DNA of 26,964 nucleotides, taken from the IMG/VR virus record IMGVR_UViG_3300050821_009523. One strand, written 5' to 3'. Shown one piece after another: positions 13,341 through 22,023 of this stretch. Below the pieces are notes generated by a model, which was not told the DNA's origin, did no database searches, and saw nothing but the letters and a program-made list of their open reading frames with translations. This DNA is from a virus (taxonomy: Duplodnaviria > Heunggongvirae > Uroviricota > Caudoviricetes). Position 1 is the stretch's first letter; every line of letters begins with the position of its first letter. Position numbers and translations under genes: made by a program.

Positions 13341-14025
13341 CAACGCGACTCTATTGGACAGGATCGCAGTGCTCGAAAAGCGGGCGGCCGACCTTGGCAC
13401 CAACATGACGGTCCTGCACAGACAGCAGGCCGAGGACCGCAACGGCACCATTGAGATGTACCGCGAAGCGGTGGCGCGCGTTGACGCTGTCAGACGAGAG
13501 ATCGGTTTGCTCCCCAGCGGTACGCTGGAAGAGCTCGTAGATCAGTGCACCGAGCCGCAACCAGAGGTACGCACCGACACGTGGCGCCACCCTGCCGGCG
13601 GCGAGATCAAGGTGACGTATCGGCAGGCCGGTACAGGCGAGGCCCCCACGCTACCGGACGGGCAGATCCTTGGCGGCATGGTGTTCCGTGGTGACCGCTG
13701 GGAGCTGGTGGCAGACTGCGATACGGGTAGGGTATCGGTGCTCAGGAACAACTGCGAGCAGGTGCGCTTGCCCATCGACGGCGTGATCATCTCGAAGGTG
13801 AATGCCGAGGCGTACTGGCAATTGGTCAAGATCCTCGACGACCTTAGGTTCACCAACGAGACTGCCGTCAAGGCTGTCACCAGGATCATTGAGGAGCGCG
13901 GCCGCTTCCGCGCTGCGGCAGAGGCTGCTGCAGCGCCGGCACCCAAGCGCCCGCGCGGCCGGCCGCGAAAGGGTGTAGAATCGCCACCAGCGCGCCGTAG
14001 GGCGCCGAAGGCCGGGAGACGGTGA
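13327..14025 (+). CDS. Hypothetical protein with C-terminal AT-hook (232 aa)
   Basis: GGAGG RBS plus TTG start; PKRPRGRPRKG AT-hook motif. Confidence 0.72.
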   Translation: MDKPSNATLLDRIAVLEKRAADLGTNMTVLHRQQAEDRNGTIEMYREAVARVDAVRREIGLLPSGTLEELVDQCTEPQPEVRTDTWRHPAGGEIKVTYRQAGTGEAPTLPDGQILGGMVFRGDRWELVADCDTGRVSVLRNNCEQVRLPIDGVIISKVNAEAYWQLVKILDDLRFTNETAVKAVTRIIEERGRFRAAAEAAAAPAPKRPRGRPRKGVESPPARRRAPKAGRR

Positions 14026-14123
14026 TGGACCCCGCAGCATGCGCGCCGTGTCGTATGGCAGCGCAGCGCACTGTGGCGCATCGCCCCGCTTGGCGGCATA
14101 GCGCAACGCGACGGCTTCACTAA
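14025..14123 (+). CDS. Small CxxC peptide (32 aa)
   Basis: TGATG overlap; MDPAACAPCRMAAQRTVAHRPAWRHSATRRLH fills the gap. Confidence 0.35.
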   Translation: MDPAACAPCRMAAQRTVAHRPAWRHSATRRLH

Positions 14124-14138
14124 AGGGGGTAAAACCAG

Positions 14139-14453
14139 ATGACACCAGAGGGAGTGCAAGAGCAGGCGGCTGAGTTGAAACCCGGCATGCCGGTGTTGTT
14201 GCTGACAGCCGATGACCCACTCGCGCCCGCTGTGGCGCGCCACTACGCGCAGCAGCTTGCCGCCGCCAGCCGGCCGCCGGGCGAGATCGCCCTGGCCGAG
14301 CAGTCTGCCGCCGCCATGGAGCACTGGCTGCGCGACAACCCGCCAAAGGGCCAGCCGGCCGCCAAGCCCACCGCAGACCCCCGCGATGCCACCAAGGACG
14401 ACAAGGAGAGCGCCGCAGTGCCCGGTACGCCAGAGGCCGCGGCAGGCGCGTAA
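14139..14453 (+). CDS. Hypothetical phage protein (104 aa)
   Basis: AAAGGGGG RBS; VLLLTADDPLAPAVARHYA resembles the common phage F-x-L-x-A-x-D-x-x-AP motif. Confidence 0.7.
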   Translation: MTPEGVQEQAAELKPGMPVLLLTADDPLAPAVARHYAQQLAAASRPPGEIALAEQSAAAMEHWLRDNPPKGQPAAKPTADPRDATKDDKESAAVPGTPEAAAGA

Positions 14454-14454
14454 C

Positions 14455-14640
14455 ATGGCCCTGAGGTGGGACGAGTTGCAGGAGGCAGTTGCGGACCTAG
14501 CCCGCAAGGTGCCGACCCTGCAAGCGCTCGTGACGCAGGCGCAGGGCGATATCCGCGCGCTGCAGGAGCGGCAGGCCACCACCGACGAGGAGGTGGCACA
14601 GGTGTTTGCGGAAGTGCGCAAGCAACGAGGGGCGGTATAG
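14455..14640 (+). CDS. Small coiled-coil protein (61 aa)
   Basis: ATG 1 nt after the upstream stop; heptad-rich. Confidence 0.65.
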   Translation: MALRWDELQEAVADLARKVPTLQALVTQAQGDIRALQERQATTDEEVAQVFAEVRKQRGAV

Positions 14641-14642
14641 CG

Positions 14643-15122
14643 ATGGCCGCACAGGACAGCCCCCCGGCCGGCCAGCCGGATAGCAGCGGTGCGCCGCCCA
14701 TCCGCACCGGCGGGGGGCGCCCTAAAGGTAGCCTCAACAAGCTGAGCAAGGATCTGGCCGCGAAGCTCGAACGGCTGGACTGCGACCCCGCGATGGCGCT
14801 GGCCAAATTGATGCGCTGGACGCGGCCCTTTTATCCGCGGCGCTGTGACTACCCTGGCTGCCACGAATTCTGCACACACGGCGGCTTGCGGCCCGCGAAA
14901 GGCTGGTGTGGGGACCACGCACCGGCAGATGCGCCAGCAATGCCGATATTCAAGAACCCCAACGAAGACAAACAACTGCATAAAGAATGCGCCGGCTTGC
15001 TGATGCCCTACATCGCGCCGCGCATCACGGCAGTCGAGATGGACATGTCCAGCCTGTTGGGTGACGTCACGATCAACATCCTGCCGCCCGAGCCTGACGA
15101 AAAGCCGCCAGACGAAAAGTAG
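14643..15122 (+). CDS. terS: Putative terminase small subunit with inserted zinc-finger-like segment
   Basis: GGGRPKGSLNK...DPAMALAK...AGLLMPYIAPRITAVE pattern; immediately upstream of terL; GAGGGG RBS. Confidence 0.72.
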   Translation: MAAQDSPPAGQPDSSGAPPIRTGGGRPKGSLNKLSKDLAAKLERLDCDPAMALAKLMRWTRPFYPRRCDYPGCHEFCTHGGLRPAKGWCGDHAPADAPAMPIFKNPNEDKQLHKECAGLLMPYIAPRITAVEMDMSSLLGDVTINILPPEPDEKPPDEK

Positions 15123-15133
15123 GGCCATAGCGA

Positions 15134-16447
15134 GTGGACTACCGCCCGCTCGGTTATCAGTATCGCATTTTCCGCTCGCCGAAAGAACGGCTGTTCATCG
15201 GAGGCGGAATCGGCGTCGGCAAAACTGACACGGGCAGTGTTTGGACACTGATGCGCGCCAAGCAGGCGCCGGGAGATGTCTTCGGCATTATTGCGGCGCA
15301 CACCTACCAGCAGCTCATCGACGTAACGGTCCGCAACTTCTTCAAAAACCTAGACAATTGGGGCATACCGCATCTCCCAAAGGCCCTACCTGGTAGCTCG
15401 CGCCCATTCACAGTCCGGGTGTGGAATGGCAGTCGGTGGGTGGATCACCTCTGCCGCTCGCTTGATAGTCCCGAGAACCTCTCTGGCCTCGAGGCCGGCT
15501 ACTGGTGGTGTGACGAAGCGTGGCAAGCAACACGCGAGGCGGTTGATATCCTGCTTGCGCGTGACCGCGACAAGCGCATGCACAACCAGGGCCTATTTAC
15601 AACAACCCTTTACGAGCCTACCTCGTGGATGTACGAAACCTTTGTCGAGCGCTTCGACGAGCGCCTCATGGAAGTGATCTATGCGCCGACTTGGCTCAAT
15701 GCAAAGAATCTGCCCGATGGTTACATCAGGCGCATGAAGGCGATGTACAGCGTGCGCCAGTACCAGCGTATGATCGAAGCCAAGTGGGTAACGCTTGCGA
15801 GCGGGCAGGTGTATTATGCCTTCGATCGCAAGGTGCATGTGCAACAGCACGCGGAGTTTGATCCGCATTTGCCGATTCTCTGGACGCACGACTTTAACAT
15901 CGGGCAAAACAAGCCGATGTCAAGCGCGCTGTGTCAGATCAGGCGCGCGATCGGCAAGGACGGCTGGCGGCCGGAGCTCGTTGTCTTCGACGAGCTGGTG
16001 CTAGACAGCAGCGATACTTCGGATTCTATAGCGGAGTTTCGTGCACGCGGTTGGCAAGACAAGCTCAAGACAAAGCACGCTGTCTGGATCTACGGTGACG
16101 CCAGCGGGCGAGCGCACGACACACGCAGCAGGACAAGCGATTACAAGATCCTTGCGGATGCTGGTTTTGTGCAACAGCGTGTGCCGCTTGCGAACCCACA
16201 AATCAGGACACGCCACAATTCTACGAACGCCCTCCTCAAGAACGCTGCCGGAGACGTGCGGTGCTATGTTCACCCACGCTGCACCACGCTGGCGAAAGGT
16301 TTAGAGACTGTCCGCGTTAAAAAGGGCGCGCAGTACGTGGAAGAGCAGACGCGGGAATCGCACATCACATGTTCGTTGGGATATTTAATAGAGGCAGAAT
16401 TCCCCTCCGCGGGGCCACGCGGAGGTTCTATGGAGCTGCCTATATAA
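15134..16447 (+). CDS. terL: Terminase large subunit
   Basis: Walker A GGIGVGKT, Walker B YWWCDEA, coupling motif FTTT, nuclease motifs WTHDFNIG and IYGDASG. Confidence 0.95.
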   Translation: MDYRPLGYQYRIFRSPKERLFIGGGIGVGKTDTGSVWTLMRAKQAPGDVFGIIAAHTYQQLIDVTVRNFFKNLDNWGIPHLPKALPGSSRPFTVRVWNGSRWVDHLCRSLDSPENLSGLEAGYWWCDEAWQATREAVDILLARDRDKRMHNQGLFTTTLYEPTSWMYETFVERFDERLMEVIYAPTWLNAKNLPDGYIRRMKAMYSVRQYQRMIEAKWVTLASGQVYYAFDRKVHVQQHAEFDPHLPILWTHDFNIGQNKPMSSALCQIRRAIGKDGWRPELVVFDELVLDSSDTSDSIAEFRARGWQDKLKTKHAVWIYGDASGRAHDTRSRTSDYKILADAGFVQQRVPLANPQIRTRHNSTNALLKNAAGDVRCYVHPRCTTLAKGLETVRVKKGAQYVEEQTRESHITCSLGYLIEAEFPSAGPRGGSMELPI

Positions 16448-16670
16448 CCTCGTGGTCTGGCACTGCGTCTTCCAAACCCAAGGCCCGTAGACAGATCCGG
16501 CAATTGAGCAACATAAAACCGTCTTGCGGCCTGCCGTCGTGCAGCTCGGGCTGCGGGCCTACGATGTAACCGCAAAGCGCCGGGCCGACAGTTGGGCCAG
16601 CATAATGCCGCACCCAATGTGGATAGCGAGTCTTGAGCCGGAGCTCGAAAACCGATGTCATGCGCGTCAT
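16440..16670 (-). CDS. Small Zn-finger-like protein (76 aa)
   Basis: GGAGG RBS; H...ALCG...NCRIC; convergent with and overlapping the terL stop. Confidence 0.62.
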   Translation of the reverse strand: MTRMTSVFELRLKTRYPHWVRHYAGPTVGPALCGYIVGPQPELHDGRPQDGFMLLNCRICLRALGLEDAVPDHEVI

Positions 16671-16695
16671 GTCAGTACCTCCGCGAGCCACATGC

Positions 16696-16726
16696 GCCGG
16701 CAGGGGGGGGGGCAACCACTGCCGGC
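16696..16726 (-). other. Stem-loop downstream of the precursor-peptide gene containing a G10/C10 homopolymer
   Basis: GCCGGCAG (16696-16703) / CTGCCGGC (16719-16726); G run at 16703-16712. Confidence 0.5.
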
Positions 16727-16740
16727 CAAGTGGACGTGCC

Positions 16741-16947
16741 TTAGCGGTGGTGCGCGTTATCGCAGTTGAACGGCACTAGGTTGGACCCTACCCAACAGAT
16801 GCAGTTGGAAAACCCGTTGCACACGCTGCCATCGCACGTAGCGTAGGTGCCACCGCACAAGAGCGTAATGAAGCCACCCTGCGCGCACCGCAGGTTTCCG
16901 GTTTCCAGGTGGCGTAGCGTCTCACGGTGCAACTTGAGCTTTCTCAT
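16741..16947 (-). CDS. RiPP (lanthipeptide-like, double-glycine) precursor peptide, 68 aa
   Basis: GGGAG RBS; leader MRKLKLHRETLRHLETGNLRCAQGG, then a 43-aa core with 6 Cys and 6 Ser/Thr. Confidence 0.8.
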   Translation of the reverse strand: MRKLKLHRETLRHLETGNLRCAQGGFITLLCGGTYATCDGSVCNGFSNCICWVGSNLVPFNCDNAHHR

Positions 16948-16974
16948 CGTATTGTCTCCCGTATTGCGTTGGCA

Positions 16975-16995
16975 GCACCCGGCGAATCCGGGTGC
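16975..16995. other. Perfect 8-bp hairpin upstream of the precursor gene
   Basis: GCACCCGG-CGAAT-CCGGGTGC; no U-tract on the minus strand. Confidence 0.5.
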
Positions 16996-17006
16996 GCCCG
17001 TACCAG

Positions 17007-17483
17007 TCAGAAAGGAATCTCGCCGTCTTCAGGATGTTTGCGCACATCAGTCACCTCGACGGGATCGCGCATCTTGGCCGATACTACTGCCTCGTAGACA
17101 ACAAACGTCTTGCGTGGTGCGCAGCGGGCCAAATCCTTGGCTTGGTTGACGGCACTCTCTAGTGTTTCGTGCTCGGCGAAGCCCCGCTCCCTGACTTGCG
17201 GCCAAGGGTTTTCTAGACATACAACGATAAAACCTGCGCCTTTCATCTCACTCCCCCCGGTTGTTGCGTTCCAACGGCCGCGGTAGCGCTGCATGTTGGT
17301 GGGCGTCTCGGCTATCAGTACTGCCATCACGCTGCTAACGGCGGCATGCTGTAGCGCGCCAATGTTCCCCTCTTGCCGCGCTAGGGCTGTACGCAGGAAA
17401 GTAAACTCCGTGCGCACCTCGCCGCGCAGGCGGTGCAGCTCGGTTGTGATGCGGCCGAGGGCTTCTTTGGTTTCGGCGTCCAT
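17007..17483 (-). CDS. Hypothetical protein (158 aa); probable internal start at 17246 giving a 79-aa C-terminal product ending DGEIPF
   Basis: TGATG-coupled start at 17483; GGGGGGAG RBS before in-frame ATG 17246. Confidence 0.6.
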   Translation of the reverse strand: MDAETKEALGRITTELHRLRGEVRTEFTFLRTALARQEGNIGALQHAAVSSVMAVLIAETPTNMQRYRGRWNATTGGSEMKGAGFIVVCLENPWPQVRERGFAEHETLESAVNQAKDLARCAPRKTFVVYEAVVSAKMRDPVEVTDVRKHPEDGEIPF

Positions 17484-17662
17484 CAGCATACCGGCAGCTG
17501 CCGCTCCGCAAGGCGCAGATAGCGCCGCGCAGCGTGCGCAGCCCATGCGGCGTACCGGCGTGCGCGCTCGGGTTCTACTGGCGCCTGCAAGCAAACGCGC
17601 GTCCAGGCGCCGAGAAATTGTGCCTCGTCGCGGTAGTGCTCTAAAGCCTCCGCAGCATTCAT
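17483..17662 (-). CDS. Small hypothetical protein (59 aa)
   Basis: AGGAG RBS just 3' of the tRNA-like CCA end. Confidence 0.65.
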   Translation of the reverse strand: MNAAEALEHYRDEAQFLGAWTRVCLQAPVEPERARRYAAWAAHAARRYLRLAERQLPVC

Positions 17663-17678
17663 CACTAGCTCCTGTGTA

Positions 17679-17754
17679 TGGCGCGGCGTGCGGGGATCGA
17701 ACCCGCCGCTTCCGGGCTACAAGGCCGGCGCGTCACCGTTGGCGCTCCCGCCGC
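17679..17754 (-). tRNA. Degenerate tRNA-Thr(UGU)-like gene, 76 nt, with encoded CCA
   Basis: GCGGCGG/ACGCCGC acceptor, D loop with GG, anticodon arm CCGGC-CTTGTAG-CCCGG, T arm GCGGG-TTCGATC-CCCGC, 3' GCCA; several non-canonical positions. Confidence 0.75.
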
Positions 17755-19165
17755 TCTCGTCGTCGCTGTCTACTGCCTGCGCTTGCGTATCGACGCCCTC
17801 CTCGATCGCGATCCACTCCACAACGCGCTCCGAGAAGCCAGAGATGCGCCGCCAGCCGGCCGACGTATCAATGCTCGGCTTATACGGCGCCACGTTGATG
17901 ATGTAGTTGTGGGTGCCGAGGCGCCGTGCCGTCGCGGGGTTGGCCTTGTGGTCGCAGTCCTGTTCGTCCGTAAAGACGATCACGCGGGCAAACGGCTGCT
18001 CGCCGAGCGTGCGCAGTTTGTCGGCGATCCAGTCCATGCACTGCTTCAGGAAGATGCCGCCACCACCAAGCTGGCAAGGTGCGTGGTGGATCGCATCCCG
18101 CAGGGCAAACCCGCGACGCGGCGGCAGGGCGGCAGTGGCGTGCTGCTGTCGGTGATCGCACCCGCCCGTGGCGTAGATCTCCACGTCCTCGCATACCTCG
18201 CGCACCAGCATCGCTAGCCCGCAGGCCGCATCGATGCGGTCCAGCGTGGACTTGCCGCCAAGCGCGCCGCCCATGCTGCCTGACACGTCCACTACCAGCG
18301 CGGTGCGGCCCGGTAGCTTGGGCATCGCGCCGAGGGACGCGAGCATGGCCTGCTCAAGGGCCGGCTCGTACGCAGGGGCGGCCTTTGCAGCCGCGATGTA
18401 GCGGTAGGGCAGTACCTTGGCATGGGGCGCGCCAGCCACCAGCGCTACGCGCGCGATGCTGCGGTCTACACCTGCCTGCTCCATGTTGCGGAGATTCTGC
18501 AAAAGCGCAGAATAGCCCAGCAGCTTGCCGGCCAATAAGCGCTCCCACGTCGCTTTCTTGTCCGCACCGCTGGAAAGCGCCACCTCCCAGGTGTCGGGGG
18601 CAGCAAGCGTGCCGTCCACGAGCTGCTTCCAAAGTGCGGCTTGCGCCTCGTCCTTGGGCTTGGCGTGACAGAGAAACAGCGCATCCCGCAGCTTCACCTT
18701 GCTGTCGCGGTTCCACTTGGCAAGCTGATACTCGGAGAAGCGCTGAAAGGCGAACGCGAGCCCGCGCTTCACCTGTGCGGCAAGCGGTTGTCGCTTCTCT
18801 TGCCAGTAGAGCGAAAGAAACTCGCTGCACTCGTCCGGCCGGCGGATCACGGCCGCCAGCGTGTCGCCCGCAAGCCGGCTGCCGGGGTGCAGGCGCACCA
18901 ACTGGCGTACGAGGTACAGCGGGACGTGCCGCAGGTGCATGCTGGTGCGCGCCTCAACGGCCAGCGCGGCCAACTCCTCGGGCCGCACCTTGGCGCACAG
19001 CTCGGTGACACGGGCCGCGATGCTGCTGCCTGTCTCGTAGAACGTGTCCTCGAATAGCAAGCACGTCGAGACGGCGCGCCGCAGCTCGGCAAACGCGGTT
19101 TGCGGGCCTGCCTTGGCGCCCTCGTGCGTCGTGGCGGTAGTGCGTGCTGCGGTGTTGGTCTTCAT
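17717..19165 (-). CDS. rsr: Ro60-related TROVE + VWA RNA-binding protein (482 aa)
   Basis: ELRRAVSTCLLFEDTFYE, EARTSMHLRHVP, LAKWNR, VKLRDALFLCHAKP, PDTWEVALS, LLQNLRN, LPYRY, VWA MIDAS-like VVDVSGSM and VIVFTDEQ; GGGAGG RBS before ATG 19165. Confidence 0.95.
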   Translation of the reverse strand: MKTNTAARTTATTHEGAKAGPQTAFAELRRAVSTCLLFEDTFYETGSSIAARVTELCAKVRPEELAALAVEARTSMHLRHVPLYLVRQLVRLHPGSRLAGDTLAAVIRRPDECSEFLSLYWQEKRQPLAAQVKRGLAFAFQRFSEYQLAKWNRDSKVKLRDALFLCHAKPKDEAQAALWKQLVDGTLAAPDTWEVALSSGADKKATWERLLAGKLLGYSALLQNLRNMEQAGVDRSIARVALVAGAPHAKVLPYRYIAAAKAAPAYEPALEQAMLASLGAMPKLPGRTALVVDVSGSMGGALGGKSTLDRIDAACGLAMLVREVCEDVEIYATGGCDHRQQHATAALPPRRGFALRDAIHHAPCQLGGGGIFLKQCMDWIADKLRTLGEQPFARVIVFTDEQDCDHKANPATARRLGTHNYIINVAPYKPSIDTSAGWRRISGFSERVVEWIAIEEGVDTQAQAVDSDDESGGSANGDAPAL

Positions 19166-19193
19166 GGCGTACTGGCCTCCCGGTCCAGGCACT

Positions 19194-19278
19194 ATCTTGG
19201 TCACGAAAGGAATGGACGCCGGCAGGAGGATCTTCTTAAGAGGAAGTACCTGCAAGCTACGCCATCTCGTGGCCAAGG
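19194..19278 (-). ncRNA. Y-RNA-like unit C (minimal, no tRNA domain)
   Basis: Shared 22-nt motif TGGCGTAGCTTGCAGGTACTTC (19264-19243); closing stems GCAGG/CCTGC, ATGG/CCAT and CTTGG-CACGA/TCGTG-CCAAG. Confidence 0.65.
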
Positions 19279-19292
19279 TCAAACTCTCATAC

Positions 19293-19437
19293 CTTGTCCC
19301 TGGGGGTACAAGCGGGCAGAGTGTCTTGCTCCTGGTGCTCTACCAACTGAGCTAACGGCCTTACGGCCGTGGCGGACTCGAACCGCCGACCCCCAGGTCC
19401 AGTGAAGTATCTCTGCTCTACGCCACCCAAGGGCAAG
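19293..19437 (-). ncRNA. yrlA: YrlA-type Y RNA with circularly permuted tRNA-like domain (unit B)
   Basis: 5' GGGTGGCGTAGAGCAGAGATACTTC; CCTGG, T arm GGCGG-TTCGAGT-CCGCC, acceptor stem ACGGCC-GTAA-GGCCGT, D arm GCTC-AGTTGGTA-GAGC, CCAGG; 3' CTCTGC...CTTGTACCCC; adjacent to the Ro60 gene. Confidence 0.9.
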
Positions 19438-19455
19438 AGCGTTTTCAAGGATCAT

Positions 19456-19537
19456 GCTTAACGGCGCGGGTACAAGCGACGCGAGGGGTTTTCTGCCAAA
19501 GAGAAGTACCTCGAATCTGCGCCACGCACCGCCAAGC
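19456..19537 (-). ncRNA. Y-RNA-like unit A (minimal, no tRNA domain)
   Basis: Motif TGGCGCAGATTCGAGGTACTTC (19524-19503), 3' CGCTTGTACCC as in unit B; outer stem GCTTGGCGGTGCG/CGCGCCGTTAAGC. Confidence 0.75.
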
Positions 19538-19543
19538 GGCGGC

Positions 19544-19573
19544 AGCGTACCAGTTTCAACGTGCGGCTGTCAA
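19544..19573 (-). promoter_or_regulatory. sigma70-type promoter for the Y RNA-Ro60 unit
   Basis: TTGACA (19573-19568), 18 nt, TACGCT (19549-19544) with TG extension; the predicted start (~19537) coincides with the 5' end of unit A. Confidence 0.72.
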
Positions 19574-20167
19574 GCGAGAGTAGGGACGATCGTGCACGGC
19601 GCGCTCCATTTCCTCGCACTGTTCAGCGAGGCCAGCGCACGGCTCAAACCACCCGACAGCGCCGGCCAGCGTGCCGAGGGCCATTACGGCCGCATCCGCA
19701 AGCCCTATGCCGCGGCTGCGCGCGTAGAAGCAGATATCGGTTAACCTAGCACCATCGATGCGCAGTGGATGAAAGACAAGCTCACCCGCCGTCCACATCT
19801 CGGTCACTGCCGTTACATCGATGGCAGCGTATTCGTAAGGCCACAGGCAAACCGACGCCCACGGCAAACGGCAGATCACCTTGTAGCTACCATTGGGTGC
19901 GAACCCTACTGCGTCGGCATTGGGTAAGTGCTCTGCGTAGAAAATGCGGCCTACGCGGAACTCTTTGTCGGCGCCGCCCTCTATTGGCGGCAGTTTGCGC
20001 GTGATCATCACCCAAGCGCCGGTCGCTGCTATGCGCTGGCGTTCGCCTGGCGAGTAGACTTCGAGATTGGCTGGATCACCGCAAAGCCTACAGGCAAGAC
20101 CATCTTTTGCATCCTTGGTAAGCTCATAACTGTCAGCAGACACGCGGGCTATTGCCTTTCTCTTCAT
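19556..20167 (-). CDS. Hypothetical protein (203 aa)
   Basis: GGGAGG RBS; CRLC motif; no family recognised. Confidence 0.75.
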   Translation of the reverse strand: MKRKAIARVSADSYELTKDAKDGLACRLCGDPANLEVYSPGERQRIAATGAWVMITRKLPPIEGGADKEFRVGRIFYAEHLPNADAVGFAPNGSYKVICRLPWASVCLWPYEYAAIDVTAVTEMWTAGELVFHPLRIDGARLTDICFYARSRGIGLADAAVMALGTLAGAVGWFEPCAGLAEQCEEMERAVHDRPYSRLTAAR

Positions 20168-20187
20168 CTTGGGGCCTCCCGGCTTTG

Positions 20188-20233
20188 TAAAACAACGAAA
20201 TGCGGCCGGCCGAGCGCAAGCCCAACCGGCCGC
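20188..20233 (-). terminator. Candidate intrinsic terminator
   Basis: GCGGCCGG/CCGGCCGC stem followed on the minus strand by ATTTCGTTGTTTT. Confidence 0.55.
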
Positions 20234-20246
20234 GGAGTTGCTATAG

Positions 20247-20618
20247 CTATAGCCCTATTGCCTCGATCAGGCCGCACACCCGCGCAACCTCGGCCTTGGC
20301 GATCGCCACCACCCGGGAGACAGCCTCGGCAGGCGCATTGCCGTCTGCGTGCCACCTATCAAGATGGGCGCAATAGCCTCGGCCGCGCAGCGGACGTACG
20401 TCGATTGCGCCACCAGCAGCTACCGCCGCGTAATGCCAACCGAGGTACTCCCACACGCGAGGCGTCCAGCCGTCGCCAAGCGCCGCCACCAGCGTGGCGG
20501 CACGGCGCTGCGCCTCGTTGTGTTCTGCGCGCGTGCATCCAAAACCGCAAGCTGGCGAGCAATACATGTCCCCGCGTTCTACGGGCGTCCAACGCAGTGC
20601 CTTCCTGTCGGCAACCAT
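20247..20618 (-). CDS. Hypothetical phage protein (123 aa)
   Basis: WTP...YCSPACGFGCTRAEH...GWTPRVWEYLGWHY; alternative GTG start at 20639. Confidence 0.75.
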   Translation of the reverse strand: MVADRKALRWTPVERGDMYCSPACGFGCTRAEHNEAQRRAATLVAALGDGWTPRVWEYLGWHYAAVAAGGAIDVRPLRGRGYCAHLDRWHADGNAPAEAVSRVVAIAKAEVARVCGLIEAIGL

Positions 20619-20635
20619 GTCAGCACCCCAACCCC

Positions 20636-21790
20636 TCACGCCGCGTACCGCAGGAGCGCCGAGCCGCGCTGCTCTAGCGCCAGCCGGTCGTCTTGGTGCT
20701 GGATGCTGCGCGCCTTGGCCGTGACGCCCTGCACGATCTGCCAGAGCGTGCGGGCGTCGCCCTCCTCGGCCTTTGCGCTTTCGATGATCTGCGTGGCCTC
20801 ACCCTTGGCGAATGCCTGCTTACGCAGCCACGCGATCACCTCGTCGTCCGTGTTGCCGAGTTTGAAACGGCTGGCGGCTTCTAGGCGACGCTTCACGTCC
20901 TGGACGCTGGCGTCCGCATACTTGGCCAGCATGGGCTGTGCCTCGCGCCGGAAGCGGTCCGGGCCGCCGGCCGTGTGCCGCACAGTGAAGGTCTTGACCT
21001 CCTCGGCGCCCCAGATCGTGCGGTTGTCGCAGCAGTAGTCGTACAGGAAAGTCATCAGCCCAAACGTGGCGCTGCCCACCTCGCTATTCCACGTAATGAA
21101 GCCGCGGTGCAGGTTGCGCACGCCGTCGCCCTCCAAGCGGATCTCCACGTCATGCGCCTCGTCCACCAGAAAGATGAAGCAGTCACGGTCGCTGGCGTAC
21201 AGTGTGGTGGCGCGCTGCGGGTTCTGCGCCTTGTAGCTCGCGCTTGGCACATGCCAGCGGCCGTCTTGGTTGACGTCGATCACGGCCTGCACCACCTCGC
21301 GGTCGTAGATCCGGCCGTAGTCGCGGCCCGTGATGCAGCGCAGGGTGTCGATTGGTGGCCGGCCGGCCTGCTCCCAAGCCTGCAACTCGGCCTCGGTCGT
21401 AGCCATGGGGCCATTCTCGGCCATGATCTGCACCGAGTCTTTGGCGGCGAGCATCTGGATGCCGTAGTTGAGGGCATAGGATGCGAGCGATGGGCCGCCC
21501 GTGTGCGTGCCGATCGTACGGAGCCACTTGGCGGGCACCTGCGCCATGCTGGCCAACTGTCCAAACGACCAATGTGTTGGTGCCAGCATCCCCATCTCGG
21601 TGTCGATGAGCAGCTCACTGCCGGCCTTGTCCTCGCCCTGCACCTTGAAGTGCTTGTTGGGCGTCACCTGTACCTCGCAACGCTCGGCGCGCGCCGTGAC
21701 GGCGGCTAGCAGCGATTCGAGGGTGAGGTAGCGCTCGTCTGCTGGACGTGCGGCCCACTGCGCCGATGCGATACTGAGATCCTGTGACAT
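20636..21790 (-). CDS. DUF932 family protein (384 aa)
   Basis: WAARPADERY, LRCITGRDYGRIYD, LYASDRDCFIFL, RGFITWNSEVG, CCDNRTIWG, RHTAG; GGGAGG RBS. Confidence 0.85.
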   Translation of the reverse strand: MSQDLSIASAQWAARPADERYLTLESLLAAVTARAERCEVQVTPNKHFKVQGEDKAGSELLIDTEMGMLAPTHWSFGQLASMAQVPAKWLRTIGTHTGGPSLASYALNYGIQMLAAKDSVQIMAENGPMATTEAELQAWEQAGRPPIDTLRCITGRDYGRIYDREVVQAVIDVNQDGRWHVPSASYKAQNPQRATTLYASDRDCFIFLVDEAHDVEIRLEGDGVRNLHRGFITWNSEVGSATFGLMTFLYDYCCDNRTIWGAEEVKTFTVRHTAGGPDRFRREAQPMLAKYADASVQDVKRRLEAASRFKLGNTDDEVIAWLRKQAFAKGEATQIIESAKAEEGDARTLWQIVQGVTAKARSIQHQDDRLALEQRGSALLRYAA

Positions 21791-21866
21791 GGCGTTGCCT
21801 CCCGTGTTTGCCGGCTTGTACCGGCGGTTGCTGCGGCACGTTTACGCCGCAGGTGGTTACTCTTTC

Positions 21867-21950
21867 TTAGCGCGATGGTCGTCGCTGATTGAGGCGCTGC
21901 CCCCCACGTCGCTGATTGATCTCCGGGAGGGTTTGGGTTGCGGTGGGCAT
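21867..21950 (-). CDS. Arg-rich leader-like peptide (27 aa)
   Basis: GGAGA RBS; MPTATQTLPEINQRRGGQRLNQRRPSR; contains a 13-bp direct repeat. Confidence 0.45.
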   Translation of the reverse strand: MPTATQTLPEINQRRGGQRLNQRRPSR

Positions 21951-22023
21951 CTCTCGTCTCCTGTGCCGGCAGGGTAACCGGCTTGGTTGTGCGGCGCCCG
22001 GCGCCGCAGGTGTCAACGGAGAG

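What the first reader, a model, noticed from the sequence alone, without database searches (positions are those of the whole stretch)
17679..17754. Degenerate tRNA-Thr overlaps the Ro60 C-terminus; the Ro60 stop codon lies in the anticodon loop
Seen: the last 12 codons (GGSANGDAPAL) and TAG of the Ro60 ORF are read from the 5' half of a 76-nt cloverleaf ending in CCA. The RNA keeps G1-C72, C2-G71 and the UGU anticodon but has G8/C14 instead of U8/A14, G21, G48, a G7-A66 mismatch and a C31-C39 mismatch. Established: RNase P cuts at the 5' end of tRNA-like folds, and nonstop mRNAs are tagged by tmRNA. Inference: maturing the tRNA would remove the Ro60 stop codon, making tRNA release and intact Ro60 mRNA mutually exclusive (a feedback switch). 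Alternatively it is a fourth tRNA mimic or a decayed att-site tRNA reached by read-through.
Basis: partly seen in the sequence, partly recalled or inferred. Interest (0 to 1): 0.75.

Follow-up and report, generated by a model that had tools for sequence, protein, structure and literature searches.

The report
Phage tRNA overlapping the Ro60 gene
A 97-kb phage has a single, oddly built threonine tRNA gene whose first half also encodes the last 12 codons and the stop codon of its Ro60 RNA-binding protein gene. This most likely comes from tight gene packing next to Ro60, which other phages also show, and a regulatory switch is not shown.

Summary
ARAGORN and Rfam both call a 76-nt tRNA-Thr(UGU) with an encoded CCA at 17679-17754 (minus strand). 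It is the only tRNA in this complete 97-kb phage. The Ro60 ORF reads 38 nt into it, and its TAG is tRNA positions 36-38.

The element is clearly tRNA-derived: 48 bits, E about 1e-11, with a model built from phage tRNAs. It is unusual, though, with the lowest Rfam score (30.4 bits) of all tRNAs seen next to phage Ro60 genes.

Comparison with about 87 phage Ro60 loci shows these genes often sit in tRNA/Y-RNA islands:
- One Ro60 gene lies inside a 30-tRNA array.
- tRNAs begin 1, 8, 45, 59 and 67 nt after the Ro60 stop in five phages.
- In one further phage (L081) the Ro60 ORF runs 21 nt into a tRNA-Phe.

The closest relative (74% identity) stops 21 codons earlier and has no tRNA. Homology ends exactly at the end of the conserved domain.

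The overlap is therefore best read as a by-product of mosaic joining and compaction. RNase P processing and an intact Ro60 mRNA must compete, but a dedicated switch is unsupported. The same idea was already proposed for selB-selC. The scan has noted phage Ro60/Y-RNA modules on other DNA, but not this overlap.

The parts
17679..17754 (-). tRNA-Thr(UGU)-type gene with encoded CCA and a non-canonical core (G8, C14, G21, A15.G48; mismatches 7-66, 13-22, 31-39). It is the only tRNA of the phage.
   Evidence: ARAGORN; Rfam 30.4 bits; own model R1 48.1 bits; feature frequencies
17717..19165 (-). Ro60 (TROVE + vWA) gene, 482 aa, stop TAG at 17719-17717
   Evidence: Pfam TROVE; PHROG 850 'RNA-binding protein' covering residues 5-459; thousands of homologues
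17717..17794 (-). Non-conserved acidic C-terminal tail of Ro60 (26 codons after the conserved W-I-x-x-E-E end). The last 38 nt (17717-17754) are shared with the tRNA.
   Evidence: Tails of relatives vary from 1 to 25 aa; homology to the closest relative ends at 17795
19312..19417 (-). YrlA-type Y RNA (permuted tRNA-like module) just upstream of Ro60
   Evidence: Rfam RF02553 48.4 bits, E 1e-8, below the gathering score of 69
17483..17662 (-). Small ORF (59 aa), with AGGAG at 17673-17669 beginning 6 nt after the CCA. It is in the same frame as Ro60 behind the TAG, and its stop overlaps the ATG of the next ORF.
   Evidence: no family match
17007..17489 (-). ORF of about 160 aa, translationally coupled to the small ORF. 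It is an orphan.

Best explanation
This is a genuine phage-type tRNA-Thr(UGU) gene with an unusual core. It is the one remaining representative of the tRNA/Y-RNA island in which phage Ro60 genes commonly sit.

It lies inside the minus-strand Ro60 operon (Y RNAs, Ro60, tRNA, orf59, orf160). The Ro60 module was joined to its present downstream DNA right after the conserved domain. No stop codon happened to follow, so the frame stays open for 26 codons until the UAG formed by U36-A37-G38 of the tRNA. On this reading the overlap is an unselected by-product of mosaic recombination and compaction.

Inferred mechanism:
- The long transcript is translated into full-length Ro60 while it is intact.
- When the acceptor/T-arm/GCCA part folds, host RNase P cuts at 17754/17755 and 3' trimming releases a 76-nt RNA. 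Its ThrRS identity elements are intact, so it is probably chargeable, though it is likely a poor tRNA.
- Each cut leaves a Ro60 mRNA without a stop codon. tRNA release and Ro60 synthesis therefore compete on every transcript. This is an inherent coupling, not a demonstrated regulatory device.

Shown: the anatomy, the comparative pattern and the junction. Inferred: co-transcription, processing and charging.
For: Real tRNA-type element:
-.

Ro60 genes in tRNA islands, among about 87 phage Ro60 loci:
- L037 has Ro60 inside 30 tRNAs.
- tRNAs start 1 nt (L038), 8 nt (L022), 45, 59 and 67 nt after the stop.
- In L081 the Ro60 ORF reads 21 nt into a tRNA-Phe.

The tail is not conserved:
- Relatives end 1-25 aa after the W-I-x-x-E-E motif.
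- The PHROG profile ends at residue 459.
- The closest relative, L020, stops 21 codons earlier, has no tRNA and shares no synteny. Homology ends at 17795.

The open frame is unremarkable.

Operon context:
- No promoter-like or terminator-like site on the minus strand, an RBS right after the CCA, and coupled downstream ORFs.

Preserved parts are those RNase P and ThrRS need:
- A 7-position acceptor stem (6 Watson-Crick pairs), a perfect T arm, GCCA, G1-C72, C2-G71, G35 and U36.
- The role of the 7-bp acceptor stem for RNase P is stated in PMC4201824.
- The ThrRS identity set is from my own knowledge of E. coli.
Against: - It is the only tRNA kept in a 97-kb genome, with CCA, T arm, anticodon loop and identity elements intact. 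This could mean selection for a specific role rather than a leftover.
- Across 138 island tRNAs, positions 8 and 14 change together (U8/A14 in 114; A8/U14 in 6; G8/C14 in 2, including this one). The core may therefore be a coherent alternative and not decay.
- An independent second overlap (L081) could mean that overlap is tolerated or even favoured.
- No expression data could be obtained, so co-transcription and processing are untested.
- There is no close relative carrying the same tRNA, so conservation of the overlap could not be measured either way.
Confidence: 0.55

Rival explanations
1. Dedicated feedback switch. The overlap is selected so that RNase P maturation of the tRNA destroys the Ro60 stop codon. 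tmRNA-tagged Ro60 is then degraded, which balances Ro60 against the tRNA.
For: The geometry allows it. The same logic was proposed for selC nested in or overlapping selB, where the overlap is conserved (PMC8124441). A second Ro60-tRNA overlap exists in L081.
Against: The closest relative has an earlier stop and no tRNA. Five of six other phages with a tRNA within 70 nt place the stop before the tRNA. The tail begins at a homology breakpoint. The tRNA species next to Ro60 differs in every phage (Phe, Met, Arg, Cys, Ile, Pro), so no cognate protein-tRNA pair exists to balance.
Confidence: 0.12
2. A non-decoding tRNA-like element kept for another role. It could be an RNase P 'punctuation' site that separates the Y-RNA/Ro60 part of the transcript from the orf59-orf160 mRNA. 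It could also be a tRNA decoy or substitute against a host tRNA-targeting defence, possibly working with Ro60/YrlA.
For: The best-kept parts are exactly the RNase P minimal substrate (acceptor stem, T arm, RCCA), while the core nucleotides are altered. In L038 the tRNA 5' end lies 1 nt after the Ro60 stop, so RNase P would define that mRNA's 3' end. Single phage tRNAs that neutralise defences, and phage tRNAs with altered loops, are described (PMC11464382, PMC11555353, PMC10264068; abstracts). ACA is not enriched in the phage (16% of Thr codons), so codon supply is not an obvious reason to keep it.
Against: Nothing ties this element to Ro60 binding: no YrlA match and no handle motif. Anticodon loop and ThrRS identity elements remain intact, which a pure processing signal would not need. 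There are no data on the host or its defences.
Confidence: 0.18
3. Dead pseudogene: a decaying tRNA that is neither processed nor used, simply read through as the Ro60 3' end and an intergenic spacer.
For: It has the lowest Rfam score (30.4) among all island tRNAs scored (33.8-68 bits). It has three stem mismatches, which puts it in the worst tenth or so. U8, A14, A21 and Y48 are all changed. The MFE fold is not the cloverleaf, and stability is no better than shuffles.
Against: All T-loop, G18G19, U33 and A37 positions, the CCA and 18 of 21 stem pairs are intact. The deviations cluster in one tertiary layer rather than being scattered. G8 with C14 fits the covariation seen in other island tRNAs. 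With the phage-trained model it scores like several neighbours, including members of large arrays.
Confidence: 0.12
4. Remnant of an attachment site: the phage carries a copy of a host tRNA-Thr 3' region used for integration.
For: Phage attP sites often lie in tRNA genes (general knowledge).
Against: No tyrosine integrase or resolvase-type recombinase is found in the complete genome. The whole cloverleaf is present, not just a 3' part. No tRNA in 185,579 species genomes shares the anticodon-arm plus T-arm pattern or the T-arm plus acceptor strand.
Confidence: 0.03

Closest known systems
selC (tRNA-Sec) nested in or partly overlapping the selB ORF in Alphaproteobacteria, Dyella/Luteibacter and Nitrospirae (Mukai 2021, PMC8124441)
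   Same: A same-strand ORF reads into a tRNA gene. [quoted passage not shown] The next ORF follows directly. The proposed consequence is identical: processing gives a nonstop mRNA, so protein and tRNA are alternatives.
   Different: There the protein and the tRNA are a cognate pair, and the overlap is conserved across many genera. Here the tRNA species has no known link to Ro60, the overlap is absent from the closest relative, and the context is a phage operon. Neither case has been tested experimentally.
Phage tRNA islands and single phage tRNAs (codon supply or evasion of tRNA-targeting defences; PMC10264068, PMC11464382, PMC11555353)
   Same: It is a phage-encoded tRNA with deviations from host-type consensus. 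It lies where related phages carry tRNA arrays.
   Different: It is the only tRNA of the phage, the lowest-scoring of its kind, and it overlaps a protein gene. No defence system or host is known for it.
YrlA / Y RNAs bound by bacterial and phage Ro60 (Chen et al. 2014, PMC4201824; Thermus phage phiLo, PMC12135203)
   Same: It is a tRNA-like RNA encoded next to Ro60. M. smegmatis YrlA, with a 7-bp acceptor stem, is cut by RNase P and receives CCA.
   Different: YrlA is a permuted tRNA module on a Ro-binding stem and lacks an anticodon arm. This element is a complete, unpermuted cloverleaf with anticodon and CCA, gives no YrlA model match and has no handle motif. A true YrlA lies upstream at 19312-19417.
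tRNA punctuation of polycistronic transcripts in mitochondria (general knowledge; plant t-elements, PMC1920247, title seen only)
   Same: tRNA or tRNA-like folds between or overlapping coding regions define mRNA ends through RNase P and 3' processing.
   Different: That system is organelle-wide and experimentally established. Here it is a single bacterial-phage locus with no transcript data.

Membership tests
tRNA (Rfam RF00005) | Cloverleaf scoring at or above the curated gathering score | tested here: met
   30.4 bits against a cut-off of 29, so marginal. ARAGORN also calls it. It scores 48.1 bits with the phage-island tRNA model R1.
tRNA (Rfam RF00005) | Conserved elbow and loop nucleotides (G18 G19, U54 U55 C56, A58, U33) and a 3' CCA | tested here: met
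   All are present in the alignments, and the CCA is encoded.
tRNA (Rfam RF00005) | Conserved core nucleotides U8, A14, A21 and an R15-Y48 pair | tested here: not met
   The element has G8, C14 (or an inserted C), G21 and A15.G48. In 138 island tRNAs, U8/A14 occurs in 114, G8/C14 in 2 and A15.G48 in 4.
tRNA (Rfam RF00005) | Processed, aminoacylated and used in decoding | not testable with these tools
tRNA-Thr identity (E. coli ThrRS rules, from my own knowledge) | G1-C72, C2-G71, G35, U36 | tested here: met
   Read from the sequence. The discriminator is G73; the other phage tRNA-Thr(UGU) genes have U73 or C73.
YrlA / Y RNA (Rfam RF02553) | Match to the YrlA covariance model (permuted T arm, acceptor hairpin and D arm on a Ro-binding stem) | tested here: not met
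   The only YrlA match within the 8 kb searched around the element (14000-22000) is at 19312-19417. Nothing matches at 17679-17754.
YrlA / Y RNA (Rfam RF02553) | The handle motif shared by the three upstream units of this phage (GRTACTTC) | tested here: not met
   The motif occurs at 19243, 19404 and 19503 on the minus strand, and not near the tRNA.
ORF-overlapped tRNA of the selB-selC type (PMC8124441) | A same-strand ORF reads into the tRNA and the stop lies inside it | tested here: met
ORF-overlapped tRNA of the selB-selC type (PMC8124441) | The overlap is conserved among related genomes | tested here: not met
   The closest relative lacks the tRNA and stops earlier. There is only one other overlap among about 87 loci. 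No close relative of either overlapping locus exists in the collections.
ORF-overlapped tRNA of the selB-selC type (PMC8124441) | The protein and the tRNA are functional partners | tested here: inconclusive
   Ro60 genes lie next to tRNAs of many different specificities. No specific tie to tRNA-Thr was found.
attP / tRNA integration site | An integrase in the genome and identity to a host tRNA 3' segment | tested here: not met
   no integrase or resolvase; no matching bacterial tRNA

The most novel reading that the evidence does not exclude
The element is kept because of the overlap or its position, not for decoding. It would act as an RNase P-dependent cut site inside the Ro60 operon that sets how much full-length Ro60 is made versus nonstop (tagged) product, and that frees the downstream orf59-orf160 message. 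Alternatively it is a core-altered tRNA-Thr decoy that works with the phage Ro60/Y-RNA particle against a host tRNA-targeting defence. The recurrence of tRNAs abutting or overlapping Ro60 stops (L038, L022, L081) would then reflect a general rule: phage Ro60 mRNAs get their 3' ends from tRNA processing.
Probability: 0.12. Interest if true: 0.65.

Novelty: new member of a known kind. Interest (0 to 1): 0.35.

Why it matters
Same-strand overlaps between a tRNA gene and a protein gene are rare in bacteria and phages, and annotation pipelines usually treat them as errors. The only described bacterial case (selB-selC) is untested experimentally. This locus and L081 show that such overlaps also arise next to phage Ro60 genes.

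The wider point is that phage Ro60 genes are often packed into tRNA arrays so tightly that RNase P would define the end of the Ro60 message. If this were followed up with transcript mapping, it would offer a simple system for asking how translation, tRNA processing and nonstop-mRNA rescue compete on one transcript.

As it stands, the finding is a well-documented curiosity and not a new mechanism.

Tried and rejected
**Ideas tested and rejected**
- Att-site origin. No integrase or resolvase was found. Two pattern scans of 185,579 species genomes found no tRNA sharing its 3' parts; the 10 hits were not in tRNAs.
- Codon supply. ACA is 16% of Thr codons, like other NNA codons.
- Stop-codon recoding. 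TAG ends 27 of 82 long ORFs, so TAG is an ordinary stop here.
- The odd bases avoid in-frame stops in Ro60. Canonical U8-A9-G10 and U20-A21-G22 would fall in a different frame (codons start at tRNA positions 3, 6, 9 and so on), so they would not create in-frame stops.
- A fourth Y RNA. There is no YrlA match and no GRTACTTC motif at the element.
- The CUUGUA of the anticodon loop resembles the 3' handle strand of the upstream Y units, and ARAGORN miscalls Y-RNA 5' regions of L002, L003 and L015 as tRNA-Thr(tgt). However, CTTGTAS is generally enriched in the window (12 found against 3.2 expected), and no other phage has tRNA-Thr next to Ro60. I treat this as coincidence.

**Searches that found nothing or gave no usable result**
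- Closer relatives carrying the same tRNA. The viral pattern scan, the metagenome pattern scan and the phage BLAST (best hit 77% to a tRNA-Gly) found none.
- Relatives of the downstream ORF or of the L081 Ro60: none close.
- Thermodynamic folding. The MFE is not the cloverleaf and the z-score is +1.29. This is uninformative for tRNAs.
- Cultured phages. CcrColossus has a terminator after Ro60 and Xanthomonas phage Olaya has no tRNA nearby, so the tRNA neighbourhood is frequent but not universal.

Full report
**Setting.** The window is bases 5388-32351 of a 97,023-bp IMG/VR virus record rated complete. On the minus strand a Ro60 (TROVE) ORF runs from 19282 to 17717. The likely start is the ATG at 19165, which gives the 482-aa product that the database also holds. 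A YrlA-type Y RNA lies just upstream at 19312-19417.

**Observation.**
- ARAGORN finds exactly one tRNA in the window and in the whole genome. It is tRNA-Thr(tgt) at 17679-17754, minus strand, 76 nt, with an encoded CCA.
- Rfam's tRNA model matches at 30.4 bits, just above the cut-off of 29.
- I built a covariance model from 80 tRNAs of related phage loci, without this one. It scores the element 48.1 bits, E about 2e-12. It is certainly tRNA-derived.
- The Ro60 frame reads through tRNA positions 1-38, and its TAG is U36-A37-G38.

**How unusual is the tRNA?**
- Across the tRNAs next to phage Ro60 genes that I scored with Rfam, values run from 33.8 to 68 bits. This one is the lowest.
- In a structural alignment of 138 such tRNAs, it has three true stem mismatches, which puts it in roughly the worst tenth. 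It also has several rare states: G.A at 7-66 (6 non-pairs of 138), C.C at 31-39, A15.G48 (4 of 138) and G38 (2 of 138).
- On the other hand, the T arm, T loop, G18G19, U33, A37, the CCA, the first two acceptor pairs and G35-U36 are all intact.
- The deviations cluster in one tertiary layer (8-14-21 and 15-48).
- In the same alignment, positions 8 and 14 change together. U8/A14 occurs 114 times, A8/U14 6 times and G8/G14 4 times. G8/C14 occurs twice, here and in a tRNA beside the Ro60 gene of L037. The core may therefore be an alternative build and not simple decay.
- I cannot tell from sequence whether it decodes.

**Comparative context.** I collected about 87 phage Ro60 loci.
- Many have a YrlA upstream.
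- A sizeable minority sit among tRNA genes. In L037, Ro60 lies inside an array of 30 tRNAs.
- The first downstream tRNA starts 1 nt (L038), 8 nt (L022), 45 nt (L037), 59 nt (L046) and 67 nt (L095) after the Ro60 stop.
- In L081 the Ro60 ORF runs 21 nt into a tRNA-Phe, with its TAG in the D arm.
- The apparent overlap in L053 is an artefact of a second tblastn segment. The real stop lies 155 nt before the tRNA.
- Abutting tRNAs are thus recurrent. Overlap occurs twice, in unrelated lineages and with different tRNA species.

**The junction.**
- Ro60 proteins end 1-25 residues after a conserved W-I-x-x-E-E motif, with unrelated tails. Here the tail is 26 residues, acidic and of low complexity.
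- The closest relative (74% identity, on a 106-kb contig, L020) ends five residues after the EEG that follows the motif, 21 codons earlier than here. A hairpin and convergent genes follow, with no tRNA.
- Translated comparison of that locus with the whole genome shows that Ro60 homology stops at window 17795 and that nothing else nearby is shared.
- The present downstream DNA (tail, tRNA, orf59, orf160) is therefore joined to Ro60 at a mosaic breakpoint 41 nt before the tRNA.
- In this GC-rich genome about 60% of arbitrary positions stay open for 26 codons, and two of the three frames entering from 17800 reach the tRNA.
- The overlap needs no special explanation.

**Operon and likely mechanism.**
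- No promoter-like or terminator-like site was found on the minus strand between 19700 and 16800.
- An AGGAG lies 6-10 nt after the CCA, followed by the ATG of a 59-codon ORF. That ORF's stop overlaps the ATG of a 160-codon ORF.
- The tRNA is thus embedded in a polycistronic unit.
- RNase P mainly needs the acceptor stem, T arm and RCCA. [quoted passage not shown] Those are the best-kept parts here.
- I therefore expect some cleavage at 17754/17755. Each cleaved transcript would lose the Ro60 stop codon.
- That competition follows from the anatomy. Whether it is used for regulation is unknown.

**Prior art.** The same idea was published for selC nested in or partly overlapping selB. [quoted passage not shown] There the overlap is conserved and the partners are cognate. 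Here neither holds.

**Rivals.**
- An att-site remnant is very unlikely. There is no integrase or resolvase and no matching bacterial tRNA.
- A fourth Y RNA is not supported.
- A dead pseudogene, a working but odd tRNA, and a non-decoding processing or decoy element cannot be separated without RNA data.
- Codon usage gives no reason to keep tRNA-Thr(UGU).

**Verdict.** The locus is a new example of a known, rare arrangement. It most likely arose incidentally in a phage RNA-gene island. Interest is moderate to low unless transcript data show regulated processing.

Noticed in passing
window 19194-19537 (minus strand): The motif GRTACTTC occurs three times upstream of Ro60 (19243, 19404, 19503), against 0.5 expected in the window. 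It marks the YrlA and two shorter Y-like units on either side. A TTGACA-18 nt-TACGCT promoter-like site at 19573-19544 is visible in the sequence but is not called by the consensus scan.
   Followed up: partly
window 17483-17719 (minus strand): The 59-codon ORF after the tRNA is in the same frame as Ro60, separated only by the TAG. Read-through of that TAG would fuse Ro60 to it. This has a one-in-three chance of being coincidence. Earlier notes report an RF2-like decoding-domain-only gene elsewhere in this phage.
   Followed up: no
alignment A3 (138 tRNAs from phage Ro60 loci, e.g. L037, L081, L095, L077, L112): The tertiary pair 8-14 covaries: U8/A14 in 114, A8/U14 in 6, G8/G14 in 4, G8/C14 in 2, C8/G14 in 1. 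Separately, T loops reading UGCGA (G at position 55) go with D loops lacking GG (13 of 16), while UUCGA loops keep GG (91 of 98). This suggests an alternative elbow contact in a set of phage tRNAs.
   Followed up: partly
L037 1-5503: In this phage contig a Ro60 gene (57% identical) sits inside an array of at least 30 tRNA genes, 15 on each side. An odd G8/C14 tRNA-Met-like gene is followed directly by a GGTACTTC handle motif upstream of Ro60.
   Followed up: partly
L038 2860-3139: This Ro60 has a 50-residue lysine-rich tail, and its TAA ends 1 nt before a high-scoring tRNA-Met (68 bits). RNase P would therefore cut the message 1 nt after the stop codon.
   Followed up: partly
L023 495-548: A type-P5 twister ribozyme match above Rfam's gathering score (44.3 bits against 37.6) lies on a Ro60-bearing phage contig, about 2.5 kb upstream of Ro60.
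   Followed up: no
L002 2848-2921, L003 2631-2700, L015 2559-2627: ARAGORN calls the 5' parts of Y RNAs upstream of Ro60 as tRNA-Thr(tgt), because the handle strand reads CUUGUAA or CUUGUAC in a hairpin next to a T arm. These are probable false tRNA annotations in such phages.
   Followed up: partly
window, whole: CTTGTAS occurs 12 times on both strands against 3.2 expected from shuffles. No cause was established.
   Followed up: no
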